Positions 11,353 to 27,629 of a stretch of DNA of 32,000 bases are shown in pieces. The DNA lies in contig NZ_JBHSTI010000051.1 of NCBI RefSeq assembly GCF_042660085.1, positions 1 to 32,000 of the forward strand, written 5' to 3'. This DNA comes from Longivirga aurantiaca. GTDB taxonomy: Bacteria; Actinomycetota; Actinomycetes; S36-B12; CAIYMF01. The notes below the pieces were generated by a model. That model made no database searches and was not told the origin of the DNA. It saw nothing but the letters and a program-made list of their open reading frames with translations. The position numbers were made by a program, and so were the translations under genes. The first letter of the stretch is position 1. Each line of letters begins with the position of its first letter.

Positions 11353-11408
11353 AACCCCTGGGCACGGTGCGAGGTGCGCCGTGCTCCGCACAACGAGAGG
11401 GGCCAGTC

Positions 11409-11684
11409 ATGGGTATCGGAGCGAGCATCTTCCTGCTGGCGGTCGGCGCGATCCTGGCGTTCGCCGTCAACGCGCAGGTCGCAGGCATCGACATCCAGGT
11501 GGTCGGCTGGGTCCTCATGGGCGCCGGTGTCATCGGCCTGCTCATGACCCTGCTGGTCTTCGCCCCCCGTCGGCGTCGTCTGGTGCGCGAGACCGGCGTG
11601 CCGTACGGCTCGGTCGCCCCTGACGGCGACCTCCCCGTGTCCCGCAACGTCGTCACCACCGAGGTGCGCGACGACGTCGTGTGA
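11409..11684 (+). CDS. Small two-TM membrane protein (DUF6458-like)
   Basis: MGIGASIFLLAVGAILAFAV...VVGWVLMGAGVIGLLMTLLVF followed by RRRR. A gagagggg RBS lies upstream. Confidence 0.6.
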   Translation: MGIGASIFLLAVGAILAFAVNAQVAGIDIQVVGWVLMGAGVIGLLMTLLVFAPRRRRLVRETGVPYGSVAPDGDLPVSRNVVTTEVRDDVV

Positions 11685-11725
11685 AGCCGCTGAGCCCCCG
11701 TCACGGGGGTGCGGGGGCTCAGCGG
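11685..11725 (+). terminator. Perfect 14-bp GC-rich stem-loop directly after the stop codon
   Basis: gccgctgagccccc (11685-11698) and gggggctcagcggc (11712-11725) are exact complements around a 13-nt loop. There is no U-tract, which I recall is common in high-GC actinobacteria. Confidence 0.6.
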
Positions 11726-11833
11726 CGGGTGACGAACGAGGCTCCGGGCGCGCGAGGACGGGGATGCGGTCCTACCGTGCTCCCTGTGGCGGCCCCGGGT
11801 GCCGTCCGACGTCGTGCGAACCGAGGAGCGCCC

Positions 11834-12151
11834 ATGTCCGAGCAGCTGACCGACCCCACCGCTGAGGCGACCGAGGGCTGCGTCGGCTGCGGATGCGGCG
11901 CTGGCGGCTGCGGCGGGTCGGGCGCTGCCCCCGTCGTCGACCTCGGGGCCGTGAAGTCCGAGGTGCGCCGGGCCGTCGTCGAGGCGGTCGTCGCCGTCGT
12001 GCCCGTGGACGACGAGGTCGTGTTCGTCGCCCCGCACGAGGTGCTGCCGCTGATGCGCTCGCTGATCGACTCCGACGCCGGCGCGCTCCAGGCGTCGTAC
12101 GACGAGGAGGGCCCCGAGCTCTGGGCCCTGCGGGTGCGCCGCCTCCGCTAG
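11834..12151 (+). CDS. DUF2249-like small protein with an N-terminal four-Cys Cys/Gly-rich tail (paralog A)
   Basis: A gaggag RBS lies 5 nt upstream. The tail is EGCVGCGCGAGGCGG. The body ...VDLGAV..EVRRA...APHEVLPL...YDEEGPELWALRV fits my recollection of the DUF2249 pattern (LDVR..P..RH...HDP.PL...Y...GP..W.V). Confidence 0.7.
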   Translation: MSEQLTDPTAEATEGCVGCGCGAGGCGGSGAAPVVDLGAVKSEVRRAVVEAVVAVVPVDDEVVFVAPHEVLPLMRSLIDSDAGALQASYDEEGPELWALRVRRLR

Positions 12152-12167
12152 CGCGCCCGTCCCTGAG

Positions 12168-12923
12168 TCAGCCGCGGCGGATTGGCTCCCAGCCCCGCTG
12201 CGGGTCGCGGTTGCCGGTGACTGTCGTGTCACGGCTGCGGTAGACGAGGTACGGCCGCGAGACGTAGCCGACCGGTGCGCTGAAGATGTGCACGAGGCGC
12301 GTGAACGGCACGAGGGCGAAGAGCAGCATCGCGACCGCGGCGTGGAGCTGGAACGACAGGGGCGCACCCGTCATGTCGCCCGGGTCCGGGCTCAGCACGA
12401 AGAGGCTCCGGAACCACACTGCAACGGACTCTCGGTAGTTGTAGCCGTCCGGGTAGCCGCCGGTGAGGTTGAGCAGGTTGATGCCCACGGTGTTGAAGAC
12501 GCCCAGGCCGACGACGGCACCCAGGAACACGTACATGACCTTGTCCATCGTCGTGGTCACGGAGAACACGCGTCCGACCGTGCGGCGGCGGTAGATCAGG
12601 ATCGACAGGCCCGTGACGACCATGACCGCTGCGATCACGCCGAAAGCCACCGCGGCCACGTGGTACATGTGCTCCGAGACGCCGATCGTCTCGGTCCACC
12701 CGGCGGGGATGAGCAGGCCGAGCACGTGACCGCCGAGCGCCAGCAGGATGCCGACGTGGAACAGCGGGCTGCCGATGCGCAGCAGCTTGGTCTCGTACAT
12801 CTGCGAGGACCGCGTCGTCCAGCCGTAGGCGTCGTACTTGTAGCGCCAGAACATCCCGACGGCGAACGCCACGAGGCTGACGTAGGGCAGGACGACCCAG
12901 ACGAACGTCTGCACGGTGGTCAT
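12168..12923 (-). CDS. narI: Respiratory nitrate reductase gamma subunit (cytochrome b)
   Basis: VWVVLPYVSLVAFAVGMFWRYKYD..GWTTRSSQ..E...LRIGSPLFHVGIL is the canonical NarI N-terminus. Its ATG overlaps the narJ stop. Confidence 0.95.
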   Translation of the reverse strand: MTTVQTFVWVVLPYVSLVAFAVGMFWRYKYDAYGWTTRSSQMYETKLLRIGSPLFHVGILLALGGHVLGLLIPAGWTETIGVSEHMYHVAAVAFGVIAAVMVVTGLSILIYRRRTVGRVFSVTTTMDKVMYVFLGAVVGLGVFNTVGINLLNLTGGYPDGYNYRESVAVWFRSLFVLSPDPGDMTGAPLSFQLHAAVAMLLFALVPFTRLVHIFSAPVGYVSRPYLVYRSRDTTVTGNRDPQRGWEPIRRG

Positions 12924-13567
12924 GCGTGCACACCTGCCTTCAGCGACTCGACGGGGAAGAACGGGGCGAGGCCGACCTGCTCGGCCGGCGGGCCGGCGAA
13001 GGCGAGCTCCTCCGCCGTGGGGCCGTCAGGAGCGGCGGGGACGACGGCGAGCAGCGCCGACACCGGATCGACATAGGGCGAGTCGAACTTCGCGAGCGCG
13101 TGCTCGAGCAGCTCGAGCCCGGCCCGGTGCCGGGCCAGCATCTCCAGCGCCGCGTCGACGGGTCCGACGGCACCGAACTCGAGCACCACCGGCAGGAAGT
13201 CGGGGAGCTCTTCCGGCCCGAGGTCGAACCCGGCCTCCTGATACCTCTCCTTGAAGCCGACGAGGGCCATCCCGCGGCTTCGCGTGTCGCCGTTGAGGAA
13301 CCAGGTGAGGTAGAGGCATGCCTTGCGCCTGCGGTCGAAGATCTCGACGTAATGCGCCTGAGCATTGACGAGGTCCGTGCTCGAGAGCCACTCGGTCATG
13401 CGCCGCAGTGGTTCGCGCGAACCGTGGGGGAGCTCGTCGAGGCTGCGGCCGACGAGGTTCAGCCTGTCGACCGCTCCCTGGTCCGGGTACGACAGCAGCA
13501 TCGACGTGGTGGCGAGCAGGCGGCGTACCGCAGGCGCCTCGCTCTCGGGGAGATGGTGGGTGATCAC
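12920..13567 (-). CDS. narJ: Nitrate reductase molybdenum-cofactor assembly chaperone
   Basis: Position between narH and narI, 215 aa, with LLSYPD...Y.E.FD... as the NarJ/TorD-like pattern. The GTG start overlaps the narH stop (GTGA). Confidence 0.9.
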   Translation of the reverse strand: MITHHLPESEAPAVRRLLATTSMLLSYPDQGAVDRLNLVGRSLDELPHGSREPLRRMTEWLSSTDLVNAQAHYVEIFDRRRKACLYLTWFLNGDTRSRGMALVGFKERYQEAGFDLGPEELPDFLPVVLEFGAVGPVDAALEMLARHRAGLELLEHALAKFDSPYVDPVSALLAVVPAAPDGPTAEELAFAGPPAEQVGLAPFFPVESLKAGVHA

Positions 13568-15138
13568 TGCGACCCTCCCGGGAGGTCGGCGTTCGAGTCG
13601 GCCTCGAAGCGCTGCTTGGTGAGATGGAAGCTCTCGATCGAGACGGGTACCGGCTTGCCGTCACCGACGACGGGCTGCATCCCCGGCCCGCCCTCGAAGT
13701 CGAGCGAGCATCCGGGCGACTCCTCCAGCGCGGCAGCCGCCTCCTGGTGCGCGCGCGGGATCACATATCGGCTCTCGTACTTCGCGATCGCGAGCAGCCG
13801 GTACATCTCGTAGAGGTCCTCGCCCGTGAGGCCGACCGCCTCCGCGATCGACTCGTCGGTGTCGCGACCGAGGTTGATGTCGCGCATGTACGAGCGCATC
13901 GCTGCCAGCCGCTTGAGGACGCCGTCGACCACGGGCACGTCGCCTGCCGTGAGGAGGTTGGCCAGATAGCCGATGGGGATCCGTAGGGCGTCGATCGCGC
14001 CGAACAGGTTGCCGGCGTCCTCGGCGTCATGGCCGCTGTTGGCGAGCGCGTCCACCACCGGCGACAGCGGCGGGATGTACCAGACCATCGGCATGGTGCG
14101 GTACTCCGGGTGCAGCGGCAGCGCGAGGCGGTACTTCTTGGCCAGCGTGTAGACGGGCGACTTCTGCGCCGCCTCGATCCAGTCGTCGGCGATCCCGTCG
14201 CGACGTGCCTGGGCGACGACCTCGGGGTCGTTCGGGTCGAGGAGCACGTCGAGCTGCGCCTCGTACAGGTCCTTGTCGTCCTCGACCGAAGCCGCGGCGA
14301 GCACCTTGTCCACGTCGTACAGGAAGAGGCCGATGTAGCGCAGGCGCCCGACGCAGGTCTCGGCGCAGACGGTCGGCTGACCCACCTCGAGGCGGGGGTA
14401 GCAGAACGTGCACTTCTCGGCCTTGCCGGTCTTGTGGTTGAAGTAGACCTTCTTGTACGGGCAGCCCGAGACGCACATGCGCCAGCCGCGGCAGCGGTCC
14501 TGGTCGACGAGCACGATGCCGTCCTCTGACCGTTTGTACATCGCGCCGGACGGGCAGGCGGCGACGCACGCCGGGTTGAGGCAGTGCTCGCAGATCCGCG
14601 GCAGGTAGAACATGAACGCCTTCTCGAGCTCGAAGACCACGCTGTCCTCGATGCCCTTGAGCATCGGATCGAGGTGGCCGCGCTCGTGCGTCCCGCCGAG
14701 GTCGTCGTCCCAGTTGGCGCCCCAGCGGATCTCGGTGTCCTTGCCCGTGATCATGGACTTCGGGCGGGCGACAGGGGTGGTGTCCATGGCCGGCGAGCTG
14801 ATGAGGGTGTCGTAGTCGTACGTCCACGGCTCGTAGTAGTCGTCGAGCGACGGGAGCTTGGGGTTGCTGAAGATCTGGGTGAGCCGGCGGATGCGGCCGC
14901 CGCTGCGCAGCTTGAGCCGGCCGCGCTTCGTGCGGACCCAGCCGCCCTTCCACTGCTCCTGGTCCTCGTGCCGCTTGGGGTAGCCGAGACCGGGCCGGGT
15001 CTCGACGTTGTTGAACCAGACGTACTCGACACCCGTGCGGTTGGTCCACGTCTGCTTGCACGTGACCGAGCAGGTGTGGCACCCGATGCACTTGTCGAGG
15101 TTCATCACCATGCCCACCTGGGCCATGACGCGTGTCAT
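13564..15138 (-). CDS. narH: Respiratory nitrate reductase beta subunit (Fe-S)
   Basis: MAQVGMVMNLDKCIGCHTCSVTCK plus further ferredoxin Cys clusters (CEHCLNPACVAACPSGA, CRGWRMCVSGCPY, CTFCYPR). The start overlaps the narG stop by 1 nt (TGATG); the ORF extension to 15738 is spurious. Confidence 0.95.
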   Translation of the reverse strand: MTRVMAQVGMVMNLDKCIGCHTCSVTCKQTWTNRTGVEYVWFNNVETRPGLGYPKRHEDQEQWKGGWVRTKRGRLKLRSGGRIRRLTQIFSNPKLPSLDDYYEPWTYDYDTLISSPAMDTTPVARPKSMITGKDTEIRWGANWDDDLGGTHERGHLDPMLKGIEDSVVFELEKAFMFYLPRICEHCLNPACVAACPSGAMYKRSEDGIVLVDQDRCRGWRMCVSGCPYKKVYFNHKTGKAEKCTFCYPRLEVGQPTVCAETCVGRLRYIGLFLYDVDKVLAAASVEDDKDLYEAQLDVLLDPNDPEVVAQARRDGIADDWIEAAQKSPVYTLAKKYRLALPLHPEYRTMPMVWYIPPLSPVVDALANSGHDAEDAGNLFGAIDALRIPIGYLANLLTAGDVPVVDGVLKRLAAMRSYMRDINLGRDTDESIAEAVGLTGEDLYEMYRLLAIAKYESRYVIPRAHQEAAAALEESPGCSLDFEGGPGMQPVVGDGKPVPVSIESFHLTKQRFEADSNADLPGGSQ

Positions 15139-18100
15139 CAGTACTGCACCTCCTGCGACCGGCGACGGATAGTCGTCACCTCGTCGCGCTGGTTGCCGGT
15201 GGGGCCGTAGTAGTTGAAGCCGTACGACAGCTGCGCGTAGCCGCCGATGAGGTGGGTCGGCTTGAGCAGCAGCCGCGTGAGCGAGTTGTGGATGCCGCCG
15301 CGCTTCCCGGTCTTCTCGACCCGGGGGACGCCGACCGTGCGGTCCTTCGCGTGGTACATGTAGACAGTGCCCTCGGGCATGCGGTGGCTGACGACGGCGC
15401 GCGCGACGACGATGCCGTTGCGGTTGTGCGCCTCGATCCAGTCGTTGTCGCGCACGCCGATCTTCTCGGCGTCCTCGCGGCTCATCCAGATGTCGGGACC
15501 TCCGCGCGAGAGTGCCAGCATGAAGAGGTTGTCCTGGTACTCGGAGTGGATCGACCACTTCGAGTGCGGGGTCAGGTAGCGGACGACGACCTGCTGCTCG
15601 TCGTGGTCGCCGATCGTCGGGTAGCCCGCGATGGCCGCGAGGTTGAGCGGCGGCCGGTACGTGGGGAAGCACTCGCCGACCTCGGCCATCCAGTCGTGGT
15701 CGAGGAAGAAGTGCTGACGCCCCGTCAGCGTGTGCCACGGCTTCTTGCGCTCGACGTTGATGGTGAACGGAGAGTACCGGCGCCCTCCGTGCTCGCTACC
15801 CGACCACTCCCACGAGGTGATGACGGGCTGGGGCCGGCTCTGGGTGTCGGCGAACGTGATGTGCTTGCCCTCGTTGTCGCGCGCGAGGTCGGCGAGCACC
15901 TGTCCGGTGCGCTTCTCGAGGAACTCGAAGCCGGCCACGGCGACCGCGCCGTTGCTGACGCCGGAGAGGGTGAGGATCGCCTCGCACACCTGCTCGGCCG
16001 TCTCGATCCGGGGGCGTCCGTCGGCCACGCCGCCCACGACCGTGCCGTTGACCTTCTTCAGGTGCTCCACGGACTTCGGCTGCCTGAGCGTGATTCCCTT
16101 GACCACCGTGCCGATGCTCTCGACGTTGGGCCCGAGGGCGCCCATCTTCGCGGCGATGGCCGAGTAGTCGCGCTCGACGACCACGAGGTTGGGCATGGTG
16201 CGGCCGGGGACCGGCTCGCACTCGCCGGCGCGCCAGTCGAGCACGCGGCCGCCGGGCTGGGAGATCTCGCTGGGGGTGTCGTGCTGCTGCGGCAGCGCGA
16301 CGACGTCCTTGACGACACCGAGCCGTGGCCCGGCGAGCTCGGTGAACACCGCCGCCATCTTCTGGAAGACGTCGTGGTCGCTGCGGCACTGCCACGGTGG
16401 CGAGATCGCCGCGTTGAACGCGTGGATGAACGGGTGCATGTCGGTCGAGGAGATGTCGTACTTCTCGTACCAGGTCGCGGCCGGGAGCAGCACGTCGCTG
16501 AACAGCCCGGTGCTCGTCATGCGGAAGTCGAGCGACACCAGGAGGTCGAGCTTCCCGGTGGGCGCCTCGTCCCGCCAGGCCACCGTCTTCGGCCGCTTGC
16601 CCTCGGGCGTCTGGCCGCCGTCGATGGCGCCGTCCGCACCGAGCAGGTGGTGCAGGAAGTACTCGTTGCCCTTCCCGCTCGAGCCGAGCAGGTTCGCGCG
16701 CCAGACCGTGAGCACTCGAGGGAAGTTCTCGGGCGCGTCCGGGTCCTCGACCGAGAACTTGAGACGGTCGGCCTTCAGCTCCTGCACCACGTAGTCGGGA
16801 GCGGACATGCCTGCGGCCTCCGCGTCGGCAGCGAGCGTGATCGGGTTGCGGTCGAACGTGGGGTACGACGGCGTCCAGCCCATGCGGACCGCCTGGGCCA
16901 GCGTGTCGGCCATGGCCTGGCCGGTGAACCGACCGGTCCCGAGCGGGGTCGCGACCTCGTCGGCGCCGAACGCGTCGTACCGCCACTGGTCGGTGTGGAG
17001 GTACCAGAACGATGTGCCGGCCATCTGGCGCGGCGGGCGCGACCAGTCGGCGCCGAAGGCGAGCTGCGCCCAGCCGGTGAACGGCCGGGCCTTCTCCTGA
17101 CCCACGTAGTGGGCCCAGCCTCCGCCGTTCTTGCCCTGGCAGCCGGTGAGCAGCACCAGGCTGATGATCGCGCGGTAGATCGTGTCGGAGTGGTACCAGT
17201 GGTTGGTGCCGGCACCGAGCGTGATCATCGAGCGACCGCCGGAGTCCTCGGCGTTCTGCGCGAACTCGCGGGCGATGCGCTCGACGGTCGCCGCCGGGAC
17301 GGAGGTGATCTCCTCCTGCCAGGCCGGCGTGTACGGCGCATCCGCGTCGTCGTACCCGGCGCCCCACGTGCCGGGCAGGCCGTCGCGGGCCACGCCGTAC
17401 TGCGCGAGCAGGAGGTCGTAGACCGTGGTCACGAGCCGGTCGCCCATGCGGCGCACGGGCACACCTCGCCGGATGACGCTGCCGCGCTCGGTGCCGTTCT
17501 CTCCGGCGTCGAACCGAGGAAGGTCGACGGTCACAGTCTCGGCGCCGTCCGCGTGCATGGTGAGCAGCGGGTCGACGTCGCCGAGGTCGAGGTTCCAGTG
17601 GCCCATCCCGGACTCGTTGTGGCGGAAGCCGATCGAGCCGTCGGGCACGACCGTCTCGCCGGTCGCGGCATCGATGAGAACCGGCTTCCACTCGGCCGCC
17701 TCGACATCCTGGCCGAGGTCTGCGGCGTTGACGAAGCGGTCGGGGACGAACGACTCGCCGTGCGCGCGGAGCGAGACGAGGAAGGGCAGGTCGGTGTAGC
17801 GCTTGGAGTAGTCGACGAACATCGGCACCTGCCGCTGCACGTAGAACTCGCGCAGGATCACGTGGCCCATCGCCATGGCGAGCGCACCGTCGGTGCCCGG
17901 GTGCGCGGGCAGCCACTCGTCGGCGAACTTGGTGTTGTCGGCGTAGTCGGGGCTGACCGTCACGACCTTCTGGCCCTTGTAGCGGGCCTCGGTCATGAAG
18001 TGCGCGTCCGGGGTACGAGTCGTAGGGATGTTGGAGCCCCACATGATCAGGTAGCTCGCGTTCCACCAGTCGGCCGACTCGGGGACGTCGGTCTGATCGC

Positions 18101-18833
18101 CCCAGATCTGCGGCGACGCGATCGGCAGGTCGCAGTACCAGTCGTAGAACGACAGCATCGTGCCGCCGATGAGCGAGGTGTAGCGGGCTCCGGCTGCGTG
18201 CGAGGCCATCGACATCGCGGGGATCGGCGAGAACCCGGCGACGCGGTCGGGACCCCAGCGGTCGATCGTGTGCACCTGGGCGGCGGCCACCATCTCGAGC
18301 GCCTCGTCCCAGGAGGCGCGGACGAGACCGCCCTTGCCGCGGGCGGACATGTAGGTGCGGCGCTTGGCGTCGTCGTCGACGATGCTCGCCCACGCCGCGA
18401 CGGGGTCGCCCCCGTGGGCGACCTTGGCTGCGCGGTACATCTCGAGGAGCACACCGCGGATGTACGGGTAGCGCACGCGCGTCGGCGAGTAGGTGTACCA
18501 GGAGAAGGCGGCACCACGGGGGCAGCCGCGGGGCTCGTACTCGGGGGAGTCGGCGCCGACGGACGGGTAGTCGGTCTGCTGCGTCTCCCACGTGATGATG
18601 CCGTCCTTGACGTACACCTTCCACGAGCACGAGCCCGTGCAGTTCACGCCATGGGTGGAGCGCACGACGCGGTCGTGCGACCAGCGGTCGCGGTAGAAGA
18701 CGTCGCCCTCGCGACCGCCGACGTAGTGCACCGCGCGGTGGTCGGGAGAGGTCTCGCTGCGGGTCAGGAACGAGCGGGCGCTGATGAGGGCGTCGACGAA
18801 GGGGTCGTCGATGCGCGTCGGGGTCTCGGTCAC
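15138..18833 (-). CDS. narG: Respiratory nitrate reductase alpha subunit (Mo-bisMGD)
   Basis: RSTHGVNCTGSCSWKVYVKDGIITWETQQTDYP (FS0 H/Cys motif). The product is ~1231 aa from the GTG at 18831-18833, 1 nt after the upstream regulator's TGA. The 1418-aa ORF extension overlaps the regulator and is rejected. Confidence 0.95.
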   Translation of the reverse strand: MTETPTRIDDPFVDALISARSFLTRSETSPDHRAVHYVGGREGDVFYRDRWSHDRVVRSTHGVNCTGSCSWKVYVKDGIITWETQQTDYPSVGADSPEYEPRGCPRGAAFSWYTYSPTRVRYPYIRGVLLEMYRAAKVAHGGDPVAAWASIVDDDAKRRTYMSARGKGGLVRASWDEALEMVAAAQVHTIDRWGPDRVAGFSPIPAMSMASHAAGARYTSLIGGTMLSFYDWYCDLPIASPQIWGDQTDVPESADWWNASYLIMWGSNIPTTRTPDAHFMTEARYKGQKVVTVSPDYADNTKFADEWLPAHPGTDGALAMAMGHVILREFYVQRQVPMFVDYSKRYTDLPFLVSLRAHGESFVPDRFVNAADLGQDVEAAEWKPVLIDAATGETVVPDGSIGFRHNESGMGHWNLDLGDVDPLLTMHADGAETVTVDLPRFDAGENGTERGSVIRRGVPVRRMGDRLVTTVYDLLLAQYGVARDGLPGTWGAGYDDADAPYTPAWQEEITSVPAATVERIAREFAQNAEDSGGRSMITLGAGTNHWYHSDTIYRAIISLVLLTGCQGKNGGGWAHYVGQEKARPFTGWAQLAFGADWSRPPRQMAGTSFWYLHTDQWRYDAFGADEVATPLGTGRFTGQAMADTLAQAVRMGWTPSYPTFDRNPITLAADAEAAGMSAPDYVVQELKADRLKFSVEDPDAPENFPRVLTVWRANLLGSSGKGNEYFLHHLLGADGAIDGGQTPEGKRPKTVAWRDEAPTGKLDLLVSLDFRMTSTGLFSDVLLPAATWYEKYDISSTDMHPFIHAFNAAISPPWQCRSDHDVFQKMAAVFTELAGPRLGVVKDVVALPQQHDTPSEISQPGGRVLDWRAGECEPVPGRTMPNLVVVERDYSAIAAKMGALGPNVESIGTVVKGITLRQPKSVEHLKKVNGTVVGGVADGRPRIETAEQVCEAILTLSGVSNGAVAVAGFEFLEKRTGQVLADLARDNEGKHITFADTQSRPQPVITSWEWSGSEHGGRRYSPFTINVERKKPWHTLTGRQHFFLDHDWMAEVGECFPTYRPPLNLAAIAGYPTIGDHDEQQVVVRYLTPHSKWSIHSEYQDNLFMLALSRGGPDIWMSREDAEKIGVRDNDWIEAHNRNGIVVARAVVSHRMPEGTVYMYHAKDRTVGVPRVEKTGKRGGIHNSLTRLLLKPTHLIGGYAQLSYGFNYYGPTGNQRDEVTTIRRRSQEVQY

Positions 18834-18834
18834 G

Positions 18835-19557
18835 TCACTGCTCCCAGGGCGTCGGGCTGTCGCCCGCGGTCTGCGGGGCCGGGGCCGGGCGCAGGTCGGG
18901 GCGGTTGAGGTGGGCGACGCAGAGGTCGTCCTTGATGAAGATGTCGAGGCGGCGCACGGTGACGCCCGACCCGAGCTCGTCGAAGAAGCCGTGCAGCATC
19001 TCGTGGTGCAGGCGGCAGATGGCGCGGTCCTGGCGGGCGAGGTCGGCGAAGGGGCAGGTCGAGAGGTAGAGGCGGTCGCCGAGCGGATCGGTCGTGGTCT
19101 CGAAGCCGAGCACCTCGAGGCCGTCGACGGCCATCTCGATGCTGGCCTCGGGGGTGATCGCCTCGGCGCCCGGCGCGACCTTCTCGCGCTGCGCCTTGGC
19201 CAGCCGGTGGCCGGCGGCCTCCCCCGGGGAGTGCGCGGTGTCGCCGGCGGCGGCCGCGAGCTCGGCGGCCAGCGCGCGGTAGGGGTCGGCCGGCTCGGCC
19301 GCCTCGGTGGCGCGATAGAGCAGCTTGGGCCGGCCGGGCCGGGTGCGGTTCTCCGGCACGACCTCGACCCGGCCCATCTCGACCAGCAGCGCAAGGTGCG
19401 AGCGGACGGTATTGGCGTGCTGCCCGGTGCCGGCGGTGATCTCGGCGACCGTCAGCGCCTGGCCCTTCTGGGCGAGCAGGTCCAGCACCCGGCGGCCGGT
19501 GGCCTCGGTCTCCCCCGCGCTCGGCTCGGGCCTCGCGAACCGGTCCTGCAGCGACAC
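18835..19557 (-). CDS. Winged-HTH (ArsR/HTH_20-like) regulator with a three-Cys C-terminal domain; ArnR-like candidate
   Basis: The N-terminal segment RRVLDLLAQKGQALTVAEITAGTGQHANTVRSHLALLVEMGRV is a wHTH. The only Cys residues are C168 (STCPF), C181 (AICRLHH) and C213 (DLCVAHL). The GTG start is preceded by gaggagggg. Confidence 0.7.
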   Translation of the reverse strand: MSLQDRFARPEPSAGETEATGRRVLDLLAQKGQALTVAEITAGTGQHANTVRSHLALLVEMGRVEVVPENRTRPGRPKLLYRATEAAEPADPYRALAAELAAAAGDTAHSPGEAAGHRLAKAQREKVAPGAEAITPEASIEMAVDGLEVLGFETTTDPLGDRLYLSTCPFADLARQDRAICRLHHEMLHGFFDELGSGVTVRRLDIFIKDDLCVAHLNRPDLRPAPAPQTAGDSPTPWEQ

Positions 19558-19753
19558 GACCCCTCCTCAAGAGGTTTTTTCCACCACGTCGTGATTTATC
19601 CCTGAGCCCGACCGTACGCCGTCCACTGACCTGGGCCAACAGGCACAGCATGTGGGCCATATCACTAGTAAAAAACAATTCTGAGGGTGGACATCCCGCC
19701 GGGTCCGAGGTCTAGCGTGACTCGTGATTGGTAAATAACACTTCGGAGGGGAC
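19558..19753. promoter_or_regulatory. Divergent control region for regulator-narGHJI (-) and narK genes (+)
   Basis: Strikingly AT-rich islands occur in a high-GC background: gaggttttttcc, gtgatttatcc, cactagtaaaaaacaattc, gattggtaaataacac. TCGTGATT is repeated at 19589-19596 and 19722-19729, with a degenerate inverted copy at 19660-19667. Confidence 0.55.
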
Positions 19754-21148
19754 ATGAGCATCACCGCGGCGGAGAGCTCGCCCGAGGTCCGTCAGCCGAG
19801 CGGCACGGCGATCAGCGAGGACGTGTCCCCGGGGCGCTACCGGGTCCTGACCACCTCGACCCTCGCCTTCACGCTGATGTTCGCGGTGTGGCTGCAGTTC
19901 GGGATCCTCGGCCTGTCGATCCAGAAGGAGTTCGGCCTCTCCGACACCGCCTTCTACTGGCTCACGGCGCTGCCGGTGCTCAACGGCGCGATCTGGCGGC
20001 TGTGGACCGGGATCCTGGCCGACCGCTGGGGCGGGCGCATCGTGATGACCGGCCTGCTCCTCGCCGCCGCCGTACCCACCTTCCTGCTCTCGGGCGTCCA
20101 GAGCGCACCGATGCTGTTCGTGCTCGCGTTCCTGATCGGCTTCGCCGGCAACTCGTTCAGCTCGGGCATCGCCTGGAACAGCGCGTGGTTCCCGCGCAGC
20201 CAGCAGGGCTTCGCCCTCGGGGTCTTCGGCGCCGGCAACGTCGGGGCCTCGGTCACCAAGCTCATCGGCCCGGCGATCATCGCCGGCACGGCCGGCTCGC
20301 TCTACCTCGGCGGTCGCGTCGAGGGCGGGTGGCGGCTCATCCCGGTGATCTACGCCGTCGCCCTCGTGATCATGGCCGCAGTGCTGTGGTTCGTGGCTCC
20401 GAGGCCGGACCACCGGCCCGGGGCGACCACCCCGATGCGCGAGCACCTGCAGCCGCTCAAGCGGATCCGGGTGTGGCGCTTCAGCCTCTACTACGTCGCT
20501 GTGTTCGGCGCGTACGTCGCGTTGTCGTCCGCCCTGCCGAAGTACTACGAGACCAACTACGGCGTGCCGCTGTGGCAGGCGGGGCTGCTCACCGCGCTGT
20601 TCATCTTCCCGGCGTCGCTGCTCCGGCCCGTGGGCGGCTGGCTCTCCGACAAGGTCGGCGCGCGCCGGATCATGTACTGGACGTTCGGCCTGATGCTGGT
20701 CTCGACAGGCGTCCTGATGATGCCGAGCGGCTACATCACCGTCGAGGTCTCGACGAGCGTGTCGCCCGACGGTACGGCCGAGATCCTCCCGTGGAGCCTC
20801 GGAATCGTGCCCTTCACCGCGTTCGTCGTGCTGCTCGGCTGCTCGATGGGCATCGGGAAGGCCGCCGTCTACAAGCACATCCCGGAGTACTTCCCGCACG
20901 AGGTCGGCTCGGTCGGCGGCGTGGTCGGGATGCTCGGCGCCCTCGGCGGCTTCGTCCTGCTCCCGATGTTCGGGTACGCCGTGCAGATCACGGGCCTTCC
21001 GACCGCGCTCTTCGGCGTGCTCTTCCTGCTGACGCTCGCCTGCGCCGTGTGGATGCACCTCACGGTCGTCCAGATGCTCCACGACAGCTCGCCCGAGCTG
21101 TCCGACCAGTTCGAGACCCCGGTGCAGATGCCGGAGTACACCCCGTGA
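19754..21148 (+). CDS. narK: MFS nitrate/nitrite transporter, NarK1/NasA-like
   Basis: A 12-TM MFS protein with GxxxDRxGGR-like ADRWGGR and GAGNVGAS nitrate-signature-like motifs. A ggagggg RBS lies upstream. Confidence 0.85.
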   Translation: MSITAAESSPEVRQPSGTAISEDVSPGRYRVLTTSTLAFTLMFAVWLQFGILGLSIQKEFGLSDTAFYWLTALPVLNGAIWRLWTGILADRWGGRIVMTGLLLAAAVPTFLLSGVQSAPMLFVLAFLIGFAGNSFSSGIAWNSAWFPRSQQGFALGVFGAGNVGASVTKLIGPAIIAGTAGSLYLGGRVEGGWRLIPVIYAVALVIMAAVLWFVAPRPDHRPGATTPMREHLQPLKRIRVWRFSLYYVAVFGAYVALSSALPKYYETNYGVPLWQAGLLTALFIFPASLLRPVGGWLSDKVGARRIMYWTFGLMLVSTGVLMMPSGYITVEVSTSVSPDGTAEILPWSLGIVPFTAFVVLLGCSMGIGKAAVYKHIPEYFPHEVGSVGGVVGMLGALGGFVLLPMFGYAVQITGLPTALFGVLFLLTLACAVWMHLTVVQMLHDSSPELSDQFETPVQMPEYTP

Positions 21149-21176
21149 CCCGGCCCATCTCCCTGAGGAGCACGAC

Positions 21177-22586
21177 ATGAGCAGCGCGACCGACGAACGC
21201 CGCACCGGCGGCGAGTGGCTGGCGGACTGGGACCCGGAGGACGCCCAGCACTGGGACAAGGCCCTGGCGTGGCGGACCCTCTCGATCACGACGGTCGGGC
21301 TCATGCTCGCCTTCTGCACCTGGTTCCTCGCGAGCGCGCTGGCGCCGGTGCTCGGCAACCTCGGCTTCACGATCACCAAGGACCAGCTCTACTGGCTCAC
21401 CGCCATGCCGGGTCTCGCCGGCGGCACGCTGCGCCTCATCTGGATGTGGCTGCCGCCGATCATGGGCACGCGCAAGCTCGTGTCGCTCACCACGCTCCTG
21501 CTCGTGATCCCGCTCATCGGCTGGGCCGTCGCCGTGCAGAACCCCAGCACGAGCTACAGCACGTTCATGATCCTGGCGTTCCTGTCCGGCATCGGCGGCG
21601 GCGCGTTCTCCGGCTTCATGCCGAGCACGTCGTACTTCTTCCCGCGGCGGCTGCAGGGCACGGCGCTCGGGCTCCAGGCGGGGCTCGGCAACTTCGGCGT
21701 CTCGGTCGTGCAGTTCGTGACGCCGTGGATCGTCGGCTTCAGCCTGCTCGGAGTGCTCGGTGCCGCGCAGACGTTCCACAACCCGGCGACCAACGTCAAC
21801 AAGGACGTCTGGTACCAGAACGCGGCGTACATCTACGTGCCGTTCGTCGTGATCGTCGCGATCCTCGCCTGGACGATGCTCAAGAGCGTGCCGGTGCGCG
21901 CCAACTTCCGCCAGCAGCTGGACATCTTCAAGAACGTCGACACCTGGTGGATGACCGCCCTCTACGTGATGACGTTCGGCACCTTCGCCGGCCTCTCGGC
22001 GCAGTTCGGCCTGCTCATCAAGAACCTGTACGGCGCAGGCAATCCCGACATCGTCGCGACCGCGGCCGACGGCTCGACCACGGTGCTGGTCGCCGGGTAC
22101 GCCGTACCTCTCGCCCTGACGTATGCGTTCATCGGCCCCCTCGTCGGTGCCGGTGCCCGCGTGCTGTTCAGCCCGCTCACCGACCGGTGGGGCGGCGCGC
22201 GCTGGACGCTCGTCTCGGGCATCGGCATCGCGGCCTCGATCGTCTACACGATGCAGTATGTGCAGCCCGATGTGGCTGCGGGTGCTGAGGCGTTGACGGC
22301 CCAGTTCCACAGCTTCCTGTTCGGCTTCATCGCGATCTTCTTCTTCACGGGAATCGGCAACGCCTCGACGTTCAAGCAGATGCCGATGATCTTCGAACGC
22401 CGTCAGGCTGGAGGCGTCATCGGATGGACATCGGCCATCGCGGCATACGGGCCCTTCCTGTTCGGTGTGGGCCTCGCGACGCTGTCGGTGTCGGGCTTCC
22501 TCACCGTGCTGCTCGTCTTCGTCCTCGCCTGCGTCGCGCTGACGTGGGTGCGTTACGCGCGCCCCGGCGCGCCGAAGCCCTCCTGA
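21177..22586 (+). CDS. narK: MFS nitrate/nitrite antiporter, E. coli NarK-like (NarK2 type)
   Basis: WDPEDAQHWDK..AWRTLSITTVGLMLAFCTWFL, FFPRRLQGTALGLQAGLGNFGVSVVQ and GIGNASTFKQMP closely follow my recollection of E. coli NarK motifs. Confidence 0.9.
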   Translation: MSSATDERRTGGEWLADWDPEDAQHWDKALAWRTLSITTVGLMLAFCTWFLASALAPVLGNLGFTITKDQLYWLTAMPGLAGGTLRLIWMWLPPIMGTRKLVSLTTLLLVIPLIGWAVAVQNPSTSYSTFMILAFLSGIGGGAFSGFMPSTSYFFPRRLQGTALGLQAGLGNFGVSVVQFVTPWIVGFSLLGVLGAAQTFHNPATNVNKDVWYQNAAYIYVPFVVIVAILAWTMLKSVPVRANFRQQLDIFKNVDTWWMTALYVMTFGTFAGLSAQFGLLIKNLYGAGNPDIVATAADGSTTVLVAGYAVPLALTYAFIGPLVGAGARVLFSPLTDRWGGARWTLVSGIGIAASIVYTMQYVQPDVAAGAEALTAQFHSFLFGFIAIFFFTGIGNASTFKQMPMIFERRQAGGVIGWTSAIAAYGPFLFGVGLATLSVSGFLTVLLVFVLACVALTWVRYARPGAPKPS

Positions 22587-22588
22587 CC

Positions 22589-22633
22589 GGGTGGGGGGAG
22601 CGGCAACCCCCTCACGGACCGCTCCCCCCACCC
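22589..22633 (+). terminator. Perfect 15-bp stem-loop between narK2 and the DUF2249-like gene (terminator, attenuator or processing/stability element)
   Basis: gggtggggggagcgg (22589-22603) and ccgctccccccaccc (22619-22633) are exact complements with a 15-nt loop. It starts 3 nt after the narK2 stop and has no U-tract. Confidence 0.5.
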
Positions 22634-22680
22634 TTCGATCCCGACGACCCACGTGAGACCCCGACGACCGGAGGATGACG

Positions 22681-22995
22681 ATGACCGAGGACCTGCCCGA
22701 TCCGACGACCTCGCCGACGGCCTCGAGCGGCTGCGGCTGCGGCACCTGCGGGTGCGGCGCGGCGAGCGAAGCGCCTGTGCTCGACGTGCGGACGATCCCG
22801 CGCGAGGTGCGGCATGCGGCAGTGATCGGTGCCGTCGGAGCCGTCCCCGTCGACGGCTCGATCGTCCTGCTGGCTCCGCACGACCCGCTGCCGTTGCTGC
22901 GCGAGCTCGACACCCTCTGGCCTGGGGTGCTGACGGTCGCATACGACGAGTCCGGACCGGAGACATGGGCGGTCCGCCTGCTTCGGACACGCTGA
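22681..22995 (+). CDS. DUF2249-like small protein with an N-terminal four-Cys Cys/Gly-rich tail (paralog B)
   Basis: The tail is SSGCGCGTCGCGAAS. The body is APVLDVRTIPREVRHAAV...LLAPHDPLPLL...VAYDESGPETWAVRLLR. The second ATG is chosen because GGAGG lies 6 nt upstream; the ORF opens at 22675. Confidence 0.7.
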   Translation: MTEDLPDPTTSPTASSGCGCGTCGCGAASEAPVLDVRTIPREVRHAAVIGAVGAVPVDGSIVLLAPHDPLPLLRELDTLWPGVLTVAYDESGPETWAVRLLRTR

Positions 22996-27622: not shown

Positions 27623-27629
27623 GACTGGT

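What the first reader, a model, noticed from the sequence alone, without database searches (positions are those of the whole stretch)
11834..22995. Two paralogous four-cysteine, Cys/Gly-tailed DUF2249-like proteins bracket the narGHJI-narK island
Seen in sequence:
- Two ~105-aa proteins (11834-12151 and 22681-22995) sit at the two edges of the nitrate-respiration cluster.
- Each has a short acidic/Thr-Pro leader and then a tight cluster of exactly four Cys in Gly-rich context (GCVGCGCGAGGCGG versus GCGCGTCGCG). There are no other Cys in either protein.
- A ~74-residue domain follows, in which I count about half the positions as identical between the two. It fits my memory of the DUF2249 signature (LDVR..P..RH ... 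HDP.PL ... Y..GP..W.V).

Established knowledge, as I recall it: DUF2249 is an uncharacterised TusA/SirA-like small domain. It is often found in denitrification or NO-stress neighbourhoods.

Inference: a duplicated small protein with a metal- or persulfide-competent tetra-Cys tail, genomically locked to NarGHJI, NarK and MoeA, looks like an undescribed accessory component. Candidate roles are Mo, Cu or sulfur delivery to Moco or NarG, or NO/nitrite damage control. This is the best candidate in the window for a novel system.
Basis: partly seen in the sequence, partly recalled or inferred. Interest (0 to 1): 0.72.

Follow-up and report, generated by a model that had tools for sequence, protein, structure and literature searches.

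The report
Cysteine-tailed DUF2249 proteins beside nitrate reductase
Two small, real and conserved genes flanking the nitrate-respiration cluster encode the detached, cysteine-bearing half of a widespread but uncharacterised actinobacterial hemerythrin-DUF2249 protein, which is nearly always partnered with an ArnR-like iron-sulfur regulator and so points to nitric-oxide or metal-centre handling rather than a nitrate-reductase-specific molybdenum or sulfur chaperone.

Summary
Both ~105-aa ORFs exist, each has exactly four Cys in a Gly-rich cluster, and their 74-aa domains are 49% identical. Copy 2 is a clear DUF2249; copy 1 falls below Pfam's cut-off but is its diverged paralog. Both are under purifying selection.

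The "Cys tail" is not special to this locus. It is the conserved CxC-containing linker of a large actinobacterial family. In 54 of 80 related loci, DUF2249 is the C-terminal domain of a hemerythrin-CxC-DUF2249 fusion.

The most constant neighbour is not Nar or MoeA. It is a SufR/ArnR-like regulator (GRP AT-hook, three Cys plus His), present in 70 of 80 loci and in the window at 18835-19557. A membrane-anchored NirK nitrite reductase follows (44/80), then narG (13/80) and moeA (8/80).

Copy 1 is a recent, degenerate duplicate, and its position is not conserved.

My best reading is a metal- or Fe-S-binding module of an NO-responsive, ArnR-type-controlled system, here split from its hemerythrin and recruited into the narK operon. 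The mechanism is inferred, not shown. DUF2249 links to nitrate respiration are already published for Thermus DrpA/B and Haloferax. This is a new variant of a known kind, of moderate interest.

The parts
22681..22995 (+). Copy 2: stand-alone CxC-type DUF2249 protein (104 aa; alternative ATG at 22675), lying between narK2 and moeA
   Evidence: Translation. Pfam PF10006 at 66.6 bits. The identical protein is annotated in Longivirga aurantiaca. dN/dS is 0.14-0.24.
22732..22755 (+). Cys cluster of copy 2 (residues 18-25, CGCGTCGC)
   Evidence: The GCG triplet is invariant in alignment A1. Cys codons are kept while neighbouring codons change synonymously.
22774..22989 (+). DUF2249 domain of copy 2 (beta-alpha-beta-alpha-beta-beta). 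It keeps the RH and HDP motifs but has Arg where the fusion proteins have an invariant His ('PH' position).
   Evidence: (pLDDT >90 for residues 33-102).
11834..12151 (+). Copy 1: diverged paralog (105 aa), convergent with narI
   Evidence: Translation. Pfam 23.2 bits, below the cut-off. BLASTP to copy 2 gives E 7e-25. Orthologs P0169, P0170 and P0024. dN/dS is 0.26-0.34. The neighbour-joining tree places it as a long-branch sister of the copy 2 clade.
11879..11911 (+). Cys cluster of copy 1 (residues 16-26, CVGCGCGAGGC)
   Evidence: The same C-x2-C-x-C-x4-C pattern occurs in the orthologs from L081 and L082.
11930..12142 (+). Degenerate DUF2249 domain of copy 1 (RH changed to RR, HD to HE, 'PH' position is Ser)
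18835..19557 (-). SufR/ArnR-like (COG2345-type) winged-helix regulator. Its stop codon abuts the narG start. It is the most constant genomic partner of this DUF2249 subfamily.
   Evidence: Pfam HTH hits. Invariant T50, R52, H54, G75-R76-P77, C168, C181, H184 and C213 across 47 homologs. These match the features reported for SufR and ArnR (PMC12343034; bioRxiv 10.64898/2025.12.26.696629). A homolog lies near the DUF2249 gene in 70/80 loci.
19575..19743 (.). Regulator-narK intergenic region, with A/T-rich boxes in 71% G+C DNA: TTTTTTCCAC...GATTTAT at 19575-19603, CACTAGTAAAAAACAAT at 19663-19680 and GATTGGTAAATAACAC at 19726-19743
   Evidence: The boxes are conserved in the orthologous intergenic regions of L001, L002, L012, L044, L054, L061 and L081. 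They are absent upstream of copy 1. The role as operator is inferred.
19754..22586 (+). narK1 (19754-21148) and narK2 (21177-22586), MFS nitrate/nitrite transporters upstream of copy 2
22589..22633 (+). 15-bp G+C-rich stem-loop between narK2 and copy 2
   Evidence: RNAfold gives -49 kcal/mol, z -4.8. A hairpin with a different stem sequence sits at the same place in all 7 orthologous loci.
23003..24184 (+). moeA (molybdopterin molybdenumtransferase), immediately downstream of copy 2
   Evidence: The order narK-DUF2249-moeA is conserved in the nar-linked clade.
12168..18833 (-). narGHJI: narG 15138-18833, narH 13564-15141, narJ 12920-13567, narI 12168-12923
11686..11726 (+). 19-bp hairpin after the DUF6458 gene, separating it from copy 1

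Best explanation
What it is (well supported). Both genes encode stand-alone members of an Actinomycetota-specific DUF2249 subfamily. The subfamily is defined by a CxC-containing segment about 8-10 residues before the first strand of the domain. In most species this segment is the linker of a ~250-280-aa protein built as a di-iron hemerythrin domain, then a His/Cys/Gly-rich linker, then DUF2249. That gene is transcribed divergently from a SufR/ArnR-like [4Fe-4S]-type regulator. The regulator usually heads an operon with a membrane-anchored copper nitrite reductase (NirK), and is sometimes next to Nar.

In the Longivirga/Nanopelagicales lineage the hemerythrin half is a separate gene or absent. 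narK1-narK2 sits between the regulator and the DUF2249 gene, and the regulator is fused to the head of narGHJI. Copy 2 is therefore a member of the ArnR-like-controlled nitrate-respiration unit. Copy 1 is a lineage-specific duplicate that has lost two of the three conserved His residues and has its own promoter region.

How it most likely works (inferred). The Cys cluster, together with the conserved His/Asp at the N-termini of helices 1 and 2, binds a metal ion or a small Fe-S cluster. The protein acts with a di-iron hemerythrin partner, in the manner of RIC/YtfE. It would cope with the NO that Nar and NirK activity generates, by sensing it or by re-metallating NO-damaged iron centres in the ArnR-like regulator and/or in NarGH. 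It does not carry persulfide sulfur or Mo for Moco.
For: Family anatomy:
- Hemerythrin plus DUF2249 in one ORF in 54/80 loci, and a separate hemerythrin gene in at least 8 more.
- At least 1759 fusion clusters carry PF01814 plus PF10006.
- A full di-iron ligand set and C192/C194 are conserved in 50 fusions.
- The CxC motif is present in about 100 of the 150 best family representatives.
- His/Cys-rich expansions of the linker occur, for example in P0039.

Split and fused forms within the nar-linked clade:
- L002, L054 and L061 carry hemerythrin downstream of moeA.

Partnerships:
- The regulator is nearby in 70/80 loci, NirK in 44/80, and narG or nirK in 44 of the 51 loci with full flanks.
- Independent gene calls in Blastococcus and Mycobacterium show the same arrangement.
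- The NirK identity is confirmed against PDB entry 2dv6, E 6e-53.

Regulator:
- It has the GRP AT-hook, the RxH motif and the C-x12-C-x2-H-x28-C pattern. These are like ArnR, a [4Fe-4S], NO-sensitive repressor of narKGHJI and hmp (PMC12343034).
- A 38-nt motif is conserved in 57/60 divergent intergenic regions.
- A/T-rich boxes are conserved in the nar-type intergenic regions.

Co-variation:
- The extra 'PH' His is present in 285 of the ~298 domains preceded by two or three Cys. It is present in only 20 of 65 Cys-less DUF2249 domains.

Selection:
- Purifying selection acts on both genes and on the Cys codons.

Literature:
- Mycobacterial hemerythrin-like proteins react with NO (PMC8913304).
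- Haloferax has an Mrp/ApbC Fe-S-carrier-DUF2249 fusion in its nar operon (PMC11218638).
Against: - No hemerythrin gene lies in the 32-kb window, so the proposed partner is unseen here.
- AlphaFold leaves the Cys segment disordered in both the stand-alone model and the fusion model, so no site geometry is shown.
- Copy 2 has lost a His that is invariant in the fusions, and copy 1 has lost two. The site may therefore differ or be defunct.
- The 38-nt motif of the non-nar loci does not score above shuffles in the window.
- The co-variation counts are not phylogenetically independent.
- The only genetics on DUF2249 proteins (Thermus DrpA/B) points to signal transduction and to nitrate-reductase maturation, not to repair (PMC6282519).
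- No metal-binding or NO data exist for any family member.
Confidence: 0.45

Rival explanations
1. Signal-transduction partner of the regulator, working like Thermus DrpA/DrpB. The Cys-DUF2249 protein senses nitrate, nitrite, NO, O2 or redox state through its Cys/His site. With hemerythrin in other species, it modulates the ArnR-like regulator by direct contact, setting the level of nar or nirK expression.
For: - The near-universal divergent pairing with the regulator: 70/80 loci, confirmed by independent gene calls.
- A conserved cis-motif between the two genes.
- In Thermus, loss of DrpA/DrpB raises DnrS/DnrT and nitrate reductase expression and abolishes nitrate dependence (PMC6282519).
- Hemerythrin domains are common O2/NO sensor modules.
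- The conserved N-terminal 'DLPDP' peptide of the stand-alone forms could be a docking motif.
Against: - Adjacency to a regulator is equally expected for a simple regulon target. For example, ytfE is under NsrR control in E. coli (established knowledge).
- ArnR already senses NO directly through its own cluster (PMC12343034).
- No interaction was tested here.
- Copy 1 lacks the A/T-rich boxes and has lost key His residues.
- The Thermus regulators (DnrS/DnrT) are unrelated to ArnR.
Confidence: 0.25
2. The tetra-Cys tail on a TusA-like fold carries sulfur, Mo, Cu or an Fe-S cluster to Moco biosynthesis (MoeA) or to apo-NarG/NarH.
For: - The order narK-DUF2249-moeA is conserved throughout the nar-linked clade: L001, L002, L012, L044, L054, L061 and L082.
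- The Thermus drpAB double mutant makes normal amounts of nitrate reductase protein but shows little activity (PMC6282519).
- There is weak fold resemblance to the TusA-family proteins YeeD and TM006.
- E. coli TusA influences Moco synthesis (established knowledge, recalled).
Against: - Only 13/80 related loci have narG and 8/80 have moeA, and most have the Cu enzyme NirK instead.
- The TusA catalytic Cys position is Arg or Ser.
- hhalign against TusA gives 0.15% probability, and Foldseek finds no hit at E <= 1e-3.
- No rhodanese, DsrE, MoaD or MoeB genes are nearby.
- The recurrent partner domains are iron proteins: hemerythrin, Rieske, cupin and ferredoxin.
Confidence: 0.2
3. Decaying remnants. 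After the split from hemerythrin, the stand-alone genes (copy 1 especially) are losing function. The extra Cys/Gly residues are slippage products of (GGC-TGC)n DNA with no role.
For: - Copy 1 scores below the Pfam cut-off and has lost conserved His/Asp residues.
- It sits on a long branch.
- Linker length and Cys number vary widely, with repeat-like expansions such as P0039 and the P0283 group.
- The position of copy 1 is not conserved.
Against: - dN/dS is well below 1 for both genes (0.14-0.34). The four-Cys pattern of each paralog is retained at 75-90% protein identity, with synonymous changes around it.
- Both ORFs are intact in three or more genomes.
- GC3 and codon signal are those of coding sequence.
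Confidence: 0.1

Closest known systems
Thermus thermophilus DrpA / DrpB (DUF2249 proteins encoded downstream of narCGHJIKT; PMC6282519)
   Same: They have the same Pfam domain. They are small proteins encoded next to a respiratory nitrate reductase and its transporters, in an organism lacking FNR and NarXL. They are genetically linked to both control of nar expression and nitrate reductase activity.
   Different: - DrpA was found in the periplasm, and DrpB carries DUF1858 plus two DUF2249 domains.
- No Cys-rich segment is described for them, though conserved His residues are.
- Their regulators are DnrS/DnrT, not an ArnR/SufR-like protein.
RIC / YtfE / ScdA 'repair of iron centres' di-iron proteins
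   Same: The fusion relatives combine a hemerythrin-type di-iron four-helix bundle with a small extra domain that carries conserved Cys. They are encoded next to an NO-sensing Fe-S regulator, as ytfE is under NsrR. JGI annotates some fusions as 'RIC family', and NCBIfam gives a faint match to FeS_repair_RIC (E 0.0014).
   Different: - The domain order is reversed: in RIC the small domain is N-terminal and is ScdA_N, not DUF2249.
- The match is far below the family cut-off (18 bits against 205).
- The window proteins themselves have no hemerythrin domain.
Corynebacterium glutamicum ArnR and Mycobacterium/Streptomyces SufR (COG2345 [4Fe-4S] regulators), compared with the partner gene at 18835-19557
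   Same: The window regulator has a winged helix, an RxH motif, a GRP AT-hook, and three Cys plus a fourth ligand three residues after the second Cys. It lies next to narK and narGHJI, with A/T-rich promoter boxes.
   Different: - Its relation to SufR is distant: the closest model, SufR_cyano, matched only a homolog (L005) at E 0.005.
- In C. glutamicum arnR lies downstream of narKGHJI, whereas here the regulator heads narGHJI.
- No DUF2249 or hemerythrin partner is reported for ArnR in the papers read.
TusA / SirA / YeeD sulfur-carrier fold
   Same: Both are small two-layer alpha/beta domains of similar size and topology. Foldseek lists YeeD and TM006 among the weak hits.
   Different: The defining Cys of the CPxP motif is absent. 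No hit is significant, and hhalign against the recalled E. coli TusA sequence gives 0.15% probability.
Haloferax mediterranei DUF2249 proteins, including a Mrp/ApbC-DUF2249 fusion in the nar operon (PMC11218638)
   Same: These are DUF2249 genes inside nar, nir, nor and nos clusters and are induced under denitrification. The fusion to an Fe-S carrier ATPase points to iron-centre handling.
   Different: They are archaeal. No CxC linker or hemerythrin fusion is described, and their regulators are different (bacterioopsin-activator type).

Membership tests
DUF2249 (Pfam PF10006) | HMM score at or above the gathering cut-off (29.5 bits) | tested here: met
   Copy 2 scores 66.6 bits, E 1.8e-18, covering profile positions 1-68 of 70.
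DUF2249 (Pfam PF10006) | HMM score at or above the gathering cut-off, tested for copy 1 | tested here: not met
   Copy 1 scores 23.2 bits, E 6.2e-5. Homology is nevertheless secure through copy 2 (BLASTP E 7e-25). PF10006 is also precomputed for its orthologs P0169, P0170 and P0024.
DUF2249 (Pfam PF10006) | Signature residues LD.R ... RH ... HDP.PL ... Y..GP..W, and a beta-alpha-beta-alpha-beta-beta fold | tested here: met
   Copy 2 has all of them, and the AF2 domain model has pLDDT >90. Copy 1 keeps the LD, PH.(V)LPL, Y and GP..W elements, but RH is changed to RR and HD to HE.
Actinobacterial CxC-DUF2249 subfamily (defined here) | A CxC pair about 8-10 residues before the P[EV]-LD-x-R strand | tested here: met
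   Copy 2 has C23-x-C25, seven residues before P32. Copy 1 has C19-x-C21 plus C26. The motif is at least 90% conserved in 50 fusions and is present in about 100 of 150 representatives.
Actinobacterial CxC-DUF2249 subfamily (defined here) | His at the 'PH' position of helix 1 (invariant H212 in the fusions) | tested here: not met
   This position is Arg in copy 2 and Ser in copy 1.
Hemerythrin-DUF2249 fusion proteins / RIC-like proteins | A di-iron hemerythrin (HHE) domain in the same polypeptide or encoded nearby | tested here: not met
   tblastn with three hemerythrin queries finds no hemerythrin-coding sequence anywhere in the window. Hemerythrin is fused in 54/80 related loci and separate in L002, L054 and L061.
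TusA / SirA-like sulfur carriers | A conserved catalytic Cys (CPxP) at the N-terminus of helix 1 | tested here: not met
   By manual alignment to E. coli TusA (sequence recalled from memory), the equivalent position is Arg in copy 2 and Ser in copy 1. All Cys lie upstream of strand 1.
TusA / SirA-like sulfur carriers | Significant sequence or fold similarity to TusA-family structures | tested here: inconclusive
Thermus DrpA-type nitrate-sensing DUF2249 | Encoded adjacent to the respiratory nar operon | tested here: met
   The arrangement differs, however: here the gene lies between narK2 and moeA.
Thermus DrpA-type nitrate-sensing DUF2249 | Periplasmic location and an effect on nar regulation | not testable with these tools
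   Neither N-terminus has a hydrophobic signal-like segment; the maximum 12-residue Kyte-Doolittle mean is about 1.0-1.1. DrpA also lacks a recognisable signal peptide, so location cannot be judged from sequence.
SufR/ArnR-like COG2345 regulators (partner gene 18835-19557) | wHTH with an RxH motif, a GRP AT-hook, and three Cys plus a fourth ligand at C+3 | tested here: met
   R52, H54, G75-R76-P77, C168, C181, H184 and C213 are 96-100% conserved in 47 homologs. The features are as listed in bioRxiv 10.64898/2025.12.26.696629 and PMC12343034.
SufR/ArnR-like COG2345 regulators (partner gene 18835-19557) | Binds a [4Fe-4S] cluster, with NO-sensitive DNA binding | not testable with these tools
   This needs biochemistry.

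The most novel reading that the evidence does not exclude
The hemerythrin-CxC-DUF2249 protein, or its split stand-alone form as here, is the dedicated partner of ArnR/SufR-like [4Fe-4S] NO sensors across Actinomycetota. It would be a 'sensor plus resetter' pair. The DUF2249 module holds iron or a small Fe-S cluster on its Cys/His site, supplied by the di-iron hemerythrin. It rebuilds, or gates, the regulator's NO-damaged cluster and so times the switch-off of nar and nirK expression. In Longivirga the module has been rewired to the nitrate-respiration operons. It has evolved a four-Cys variant that holds its own cluster without hemerythrin.
Probability: 0.15. Interest if true: 0.7.

Novelty: new variant of a known kind. 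Interest (0 to 1): 0.5.

Why it matters
DUF2249 is a large domain family of unknown function. It keeps turning up in nitrate-respiration and denitrification clusters of bacteria and archaea, and the only genetics comes from Thermus.

This locus led to a sharper handle on it:
- a subfamily with a selected Cys(/His) site;
- a 'Rosetta-stone' link to di-iron hemerythrin;
- an almost obligatory pairing with ArnR/SufR-like Fe-S regulators, a class only now being characterised, and with membrane-anchored NirK.

That gives concrete, cheap experiments: metal analysis, Cys-to-Ser alleles, regulator recovery after NO exposure. They would address how actinobacteria, including mycobacteria and streptomycetes, sense and survive the NO that their own nitrate and nitrite respiration produces.

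It is not a new kind of system, and nothing here shows a mechanism.

Tried and rejected
- **PDB by sequence.** A profile of A1 found no solved relative at E <= 1.
- **Foldseek of both AF2 models against PDB.** Nothing at E <= 1e-3. The lists are dominated by partial Rossmann and methyltransferase matches.
- **hhalign of the family against E. coli TusA** (sequence recalled from memory). Not significant.
- **AlphaFold.** It did not order the Cys segment, either alone or in the fusion. No coordinates were available, so the proximity of H45, H67 and the Cys residues could not be measured.
- **NCBIfam.** No family for either protein.
- **Search of the window for partner genes.** tblastn found no hemerythrin, Rieske, cupin, c3 or c1 (NirK/membrane) homologs.
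- **PWM of the 38-nt regulator-side motif from non-nar loci.** It does not score above shuffles in the window, and only loose half-site resemblance clusters at 19575-19743. I therefore do not claim the same operator.
- **Sigma-70 promoter and U-tract terminator scans.** Empty, as expected at 71% G+C.
- **Rfam.** No family in the window.
- **N-terminal extension of copy 1** (GTG at 11681, overlapping the DUF6458 stop). Rejected, because the extension is Arg/Gly/Ala-rich, contains the terminator-like hairpin, and the orthologs start at the ATG.
- **Lipoprotein or secreted reading of the 'SSGC' motif.** Rejected, because there is no hydrophobic signal segment.
- **Long 'DUF' ORFs (470-650 aa) from my crude gene caller**. 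These are artefacts: the frame runs antisense through the regulator gene. The HMM map was used instead.
- **Literature search for an actinobacterial hemerythrin/NirK link.** Nothing relevant was found.

Full report
**1. The observation**

The two ORFs are as described. Copy 1 (11834-12151, +) encodes 105 aa and copy 2 (22681-22995, +; an alternative ATG lies at 22675) encodes 104 aa. Each has exactly four Cys, all within an 8-11-residue Gly-rich stretch: residues 16, 19, 21 and 26 in copy 1, and 18, 20, 23 and 25 in copy 2.

The proteins are 44% identical overall (BLASTP E 7e-25). Over the C-terminal 74 residues they are 49% identical (36/74).

Pfam PF10006 (DUF2249) matches copy 2 at 66.6 bits, well above its 29.5-bit cut-off. 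Copy 1 reaches only 23.2 bits. Copy 1 is therefore a DUF2249 by descent rather than by the curated threshold.

Cys makes up 0.85% of the window's proteins, so four Cys in eleven residues has a probability of about 2e-6 per position.

Both genes evolve under purifying selection. dN/dS is 0.14-0.24 for copy 2 and 0.26-0.34 for copy 1. The TGC/TGT codons persist while adjacent Gly, Ser and Thr codons change synonymously. The cluster is therefore selected at the protein level and is not just a GC-rich DNA repeat.

An identical copy 2 is annotated in Longivirga aurantiaca (Sporichthyales) as 'DUF2249 domain-containing protein'.

**2. Local anatomy**

The gene map is as follows.

| Feature | Coordinates | Strand |
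|---|---|---|
| Diacylglycerol-kinase-like gene | 9391-11352 | + |
| DUF6458 | 11367-11684 | + |
| 19-bp hairpin | 11686-11726 | + |
| Copy 1 | 11834-12151 | + |
| narI | 12168-12923 | - |
| narJ | 12920-13567 | - |
| narH | 13564-15141 | - |
| narG | 15138-18833 | - |
| 240-aa winged-helix regulator | 18835-19557 | - |
| ~200-bp intergenic region with A/T-rich boxes | between 19557 and 19754 | . |
| narK1 | 19754-21148 | + |
| narK2 | 21177-22586 | + |
| 15-bp stem-loop | 22589-22633 | + |
| Copy 2 | 22681-22995 | + |
| moeA | 23003-24184 | + |
| SARP/STAND-type regulator | 24185-26611 | + |

The regulator's stop codon abuts the narG start.

Copy 1 is convergent with narI and is separated from the upstream gene by a terminator-like hairpin. 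It is therefore its own transcription unit. Its upstream region lacks the A/T-rich boxes found in front of narK.

Copy 2 is in the narK-narK-DUF2249-moeA gene string. However, a strong hairpin follows narK2 in this genome and, with different stem sequences, in all seven orthologous loci examined.

**3. The 'Cys tail' is the linker of a fusion family**

A scan of one genome per species found 373 relatives, all in Actinomycetota, and the best 80 loci were kept.

I mapped domains with HMMs built here on six-frame ORFs. In 54 of the 80 loci the DUF2249 domain is the C-terminal part of a ~250-280-aa protein whose N-terminal ~150 residues are a hemerythrin (HHE) domain (Pfam confirmation on L005:9491-10249).

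An exhaustive profile search of 1.8 billion representatives gave 1314 hits. Most of the top 150 are 250-280-aa proteins matched at their C-termini, starting from profile position ~10. The Cys region is therefore part of the conserved match.

A third search, seeded with a fusion, returned at least 1759 clusters carrying PF01814 plus PF10006. These are annotated only as 'DUF2249 domain-containing' or, by JGI, 'RIC family'.

In 50 aligned fusions the seven hemerythrin di-iron ligands are invariant, and two Cys (C192 and C194, followed by Gly) are at least 90% conserved.

Across the representatives the recurring motif is (H)-x-C-x-C-G-(E/H), 8-10 residues before 'P[EV]-LD-x-R'. Proteins carry two, three or four Cys. 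Some have His-rich or repeat-expanded linkers.

Multi-repeat DUF2249 proteins from other lineages have no Cys there.

Cupin-hemerythrin-CxC-DUF2249 and hemerythrin-DUF2249-DUF2249 architectures also occur.

The window's proteins are the detached C-terminal module.

**4. Genomic partners**

| Partner near the DUF2249 gene | 80 loci | 51 loci with full 10-kb flanks |
|---|---|---|
| Homolog of the window's regulator within 4.5 kb | 70 | 47 |
| ~857-aa membrane + cupredoxin + NirK protein | 44 | 35 |
| ~373-aa membrane protein with no Pfam match | 50 | 33 |
| narG within 10 kb | 13 | 11 |
| moeA | 8 | 6 |
| narG or the NirK protein | 55 | 44 |

The ~857-aa protein has a polytopic membrane domain, a cupredoxin domain and a copper nitrite reductase domain (TIGR02376 at 177 bits). 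Its best PDB relative is the Hyphomicrobium nitrite reductase 2dv6, E 6e-53.

The usual arrangement is regulator-c3-NirK on one strand, divergent from hemerythrin-DUF2249. Independent database gene calls for Blastococcus saxobsidens and a Mycobacterium confirm it.

The claim 'locked to NarGHJI, NarK and MoeA' therefore fails for the family. It holds only for one monophyletic clade of stand-alone proteins: the window, L001, L002, L012, L044, L054, L061 and L082. In that clade the order narK-narK-DUF2249-moeA is conserved.

Within that clade the hemerythrin is a separate gene downstream of moeA in L002, L054 and L061. It is absent from this window.

**5. The regulator**

The 240-aa protein has a MarR/ArsR-like winged helix. 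Across 47 homologs it also shows invariant T50, R52, H54, G75-R76-P77, C168, C181, H184 and C213.

These are the hallmarks just described for SufR-like COG2345 regulators: an RxH recognition helix, a GRP AT-hook, and three Cys plus a fourth ligand three residues after the second Cys (bioRxiv 10.64898/2025.12.26.696629).

They also match C. glutamicum ArnR. ArnR is a [4Fe-4S](Cys)3 repressor of narKGHJI and hmp whose DNA binding is abolished by NO. It has Cys179, Cys193, Cys223 and a conserved nearby His (PMC12343034).

The regulator-narK intergenic region contains three A/T-rich boxes that are conserved in seven orthologous loci despite 71% G+C. This is what an AT-hook regulator would need.

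In the non-nar loci a 38-nt element (TATTTTcCACGGAA-n3-A-n-TGTA-n-TAAA) is present in 57 of 60 regulator/hemerythrin-DUF2249 intergenic regions. That element does not score above shuffles in the window, so I claim only a family resemblance.

The regulator's cluster binding and its control of copy 2 are inferred.

**6. The two copies compared**

A neighbour-joining tree places the copy 1 clade (window, L081, L082) as a long-branch sister of the copy 2 clade, inside the nar-linked group. This indicates a recent duplication followed by divergence.

- The fusions have three invariant or near-invariant His (H212 'PH', H216 'RH', H238 'HD') and D239.
- Copy 2 has Arg at the first of these positions.
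- Copy 1 has Ser, Arg and His, and Glu in place of Asp.

Across 412 domains, the 'PH' His is present in 285 of the ~298 domains preceded by two or three Cys. It is present in only 20 of the 65 domains with no Cys, and it is often lost in stand-alone four-Cys forms.

This pattern suggests, but does not prove, that the Cys pair and these His residues belong to one site. The counts are not phylogenetically independent.

The position of copy 1 is not fixed. In L081 it lies between DUF6458 and narI, as here. In L082 it lies between the S-methyltransferase and MarR genes, at the other end of the island.

**7. Structure**

AF2 models the DUF2249 domain confidently (pLDDT >90) as beta-alpha-beta-alpha-beta-beta. 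The RH motif sits at the start of helix 1 and HDP at the start of helix 2. The first ~30 residues fall below 50.

In a fusion model (mean pLDDT 86.7) the linker with the CxC pair is again below 50.

Foldseek against PDB finds nothing at E <= 1e-3. The weak hits include the TusA-family proteins YeeD and TM006 and, for the fusion, a mycobacterial hemerythrin-like protein, 6q09.

No solved relative exists by sequence.

The TusA catalytic Cys is not conserved, and a profile comparison with TusA is not significant.

**8. What it most likely does**

The facts to explain are these:
- a selected Cys(/His) site on a small domain;
- obligatory linkage, covalent or genomic, to a di-iron hemerythrin;
- near-obligatory linkage to an ArnR-type Fe-S regulator;
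- association with NirK, which makes NO, or with Nar, whose product nitrite and side-product NO are the ArnR signal. It is not associated with one particular cofactor pathway.

The explanation that covers all four is a metal- or Fe-S-binding module of an NO-responsive system under ArnR-type control. It would work like RIC/YtfE under NsrR in enterobacteria. Here it has been recruited into the narK operon (confidence 0.45 for the whole statement; the classification part is far more secure than the mechanism).

Three rivals remain:
- a DrpA/B-like signal-transduction partner of the regulator (0.25);
This gains some support from the Thermus drpAB double mutant, which has normal nitrate reductase protein but little activity, and from the conserved moeA adjacency in this clade;
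- functional decay, especially of copy 1 (0.10).

**9. Novelty and score**

DUF2249 next to nar is published for Thermus (PMC6282519). DUF2249 induction in denitrification is published for Haloferax (PMC11218638). Only those two papers in the searchable library mention the domain.

I did not find described:
- the CxC subfamily;
- its split and fused relation to hemerythrin;
- its pairing with ArnR/SufR-like regulators and membrane-anchored NirK.

I rate this a new variant of a known kind, with interest 0.5. It is a good experimental lead into an uncharacterised family and into how ArnR-type sensors are serviced.

Noticed in passing
window 22589-22633 (+); the same position in L001, L002, L012, L044, L054, L061 and L082: A strong G+C-rich stem-loop lies directly after the narK2 stop and before copy 2 (-49 kcal/mol, z -4.8). 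Every orthologous locus has a hairpin at this place, but with a different stem sequence. In the window, L001 and L082 the loop contains CCCCCUCACG. It may be a U-less terminator, an attenuator or an mRNA stabiliser that sets the narK : DUF2249-moeA expression ratio. Rfam has no match.
   Followed up: partly
window 18833-18837 and 18835-19557 (-): The ArnR/SufR-like regulator's stop codon abuts the narG start, so the regulator appears to be co-transcribed with narGHJI. In C. glutamicum, arnR lies downstream of narKGHJI (PMC12343034).
   Followed up: partly
window 19575-19603, 19663-19680 and 19724-19743: Three A/T-rich boxes (TTTTTTCCAC..GATTTAT, CACTAGTAAAAAACAAT, GTGATTGGTAAATAACAC) sit in 71% G+C DNA between the regulator gene and narK1. 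They are conserved in seven orthologous loci. They are candidate AT-hook/HTH operator sites.
   Followed up: partly
L004-L079, between the regulator and hemerythrin-DUF2249 genes (for example L005 9400-9500): A 38-nt element, TATTTTcCACGGAA-n3-A-n-TGTA-n-TAAA, is conserved in 57 of 60 divergent intergenic regions across Mycobacterium, Rhodococcus, Nocardioides, Oerskovia, Streptomyces and others. It is probably an overlapping promoter and operator for the ArnR-like regulator.
   Followed up: partly
L005 5086-7656 (-) and homologs in 44 loci; L054 11683-12924 (+): These loci encode copper nitrite reductase (NirK, with an extra cupredoxin domain) fused to a ~400-aa polytopic membrane domain that has no Pfam match. 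The same membrane domain occurs alone (~400-413 aa) downstream of moeA in the nar-linked loci L003, L027, L054 and L061. A second unannotated ~373-aa membrane protein (c3) always precedes it.
   Followed up: partly
L082 5434-5751, compared with window 11834-12151 and 27622-27630: In a related metagenomic contig the copy 1 ortholog lies between the S-methyltransferase and MarR genes, at the opposite end of the nar island from its place in the window. This looks as if the ~15-kb segment from narI to the methyltransferase had moved relative to copy 1.
   Followed up: no
window 11686-11726 (+) and 11760-11833: A 19-bp perfect hairpin follows the DUF6458 gene. Upstream of copy 1, a TAC(C/G)GT -10-like hexamer and the block GCTCCCTGTGGCGGCCCCGG are conserved in L081 and L082.
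   Followed up: no
Alignment A1, residues 1-9 of copy 2 and copy 1: Stand-alone family members share a conserved N-terminal peptide, M-x-x-D-L-P-D-P (copy 1 has MSEQLTDPT). It has no counterpart in the fusions. It could be a docking motif that replaces the covalent link to hemerythrin.
   Followed up: no
L041 8491-8919 (+), with similar genes in L039, L043, L048 and L062: A second type of small hemerythrin begins with MCSYCGC. It is encoded directly after a stand-alone DUF2249 and is followed by Rieske and cupin genes, so this is another split arrangement with its own N-terminal Cys motif.
   Followed up: no
L083 (Blastococcus saxobsidens FO117623.1, 4681811-4698635): This is a dense island. 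It holds three ArnR-like or IclR-type HTH genes, two hemerythrin-DUF2249 fusions, a stand-alone DUF2249, a stand-alone hemerythrin, ferredoxins, membrane-NirK, narG, and MauE/DoxX plus DsbA-like genes directly downstream of the fusion.
   Followed up: no
window 24185-26611 (+): A SARP-type (Trans_reg_C plus STAND NTPase) regulator lies immediately downstream of moeA. It is also present in L082, and it occupies the position where relatives carry the c37, membrane-domain and hemerythrin genes.
   Followed up: no
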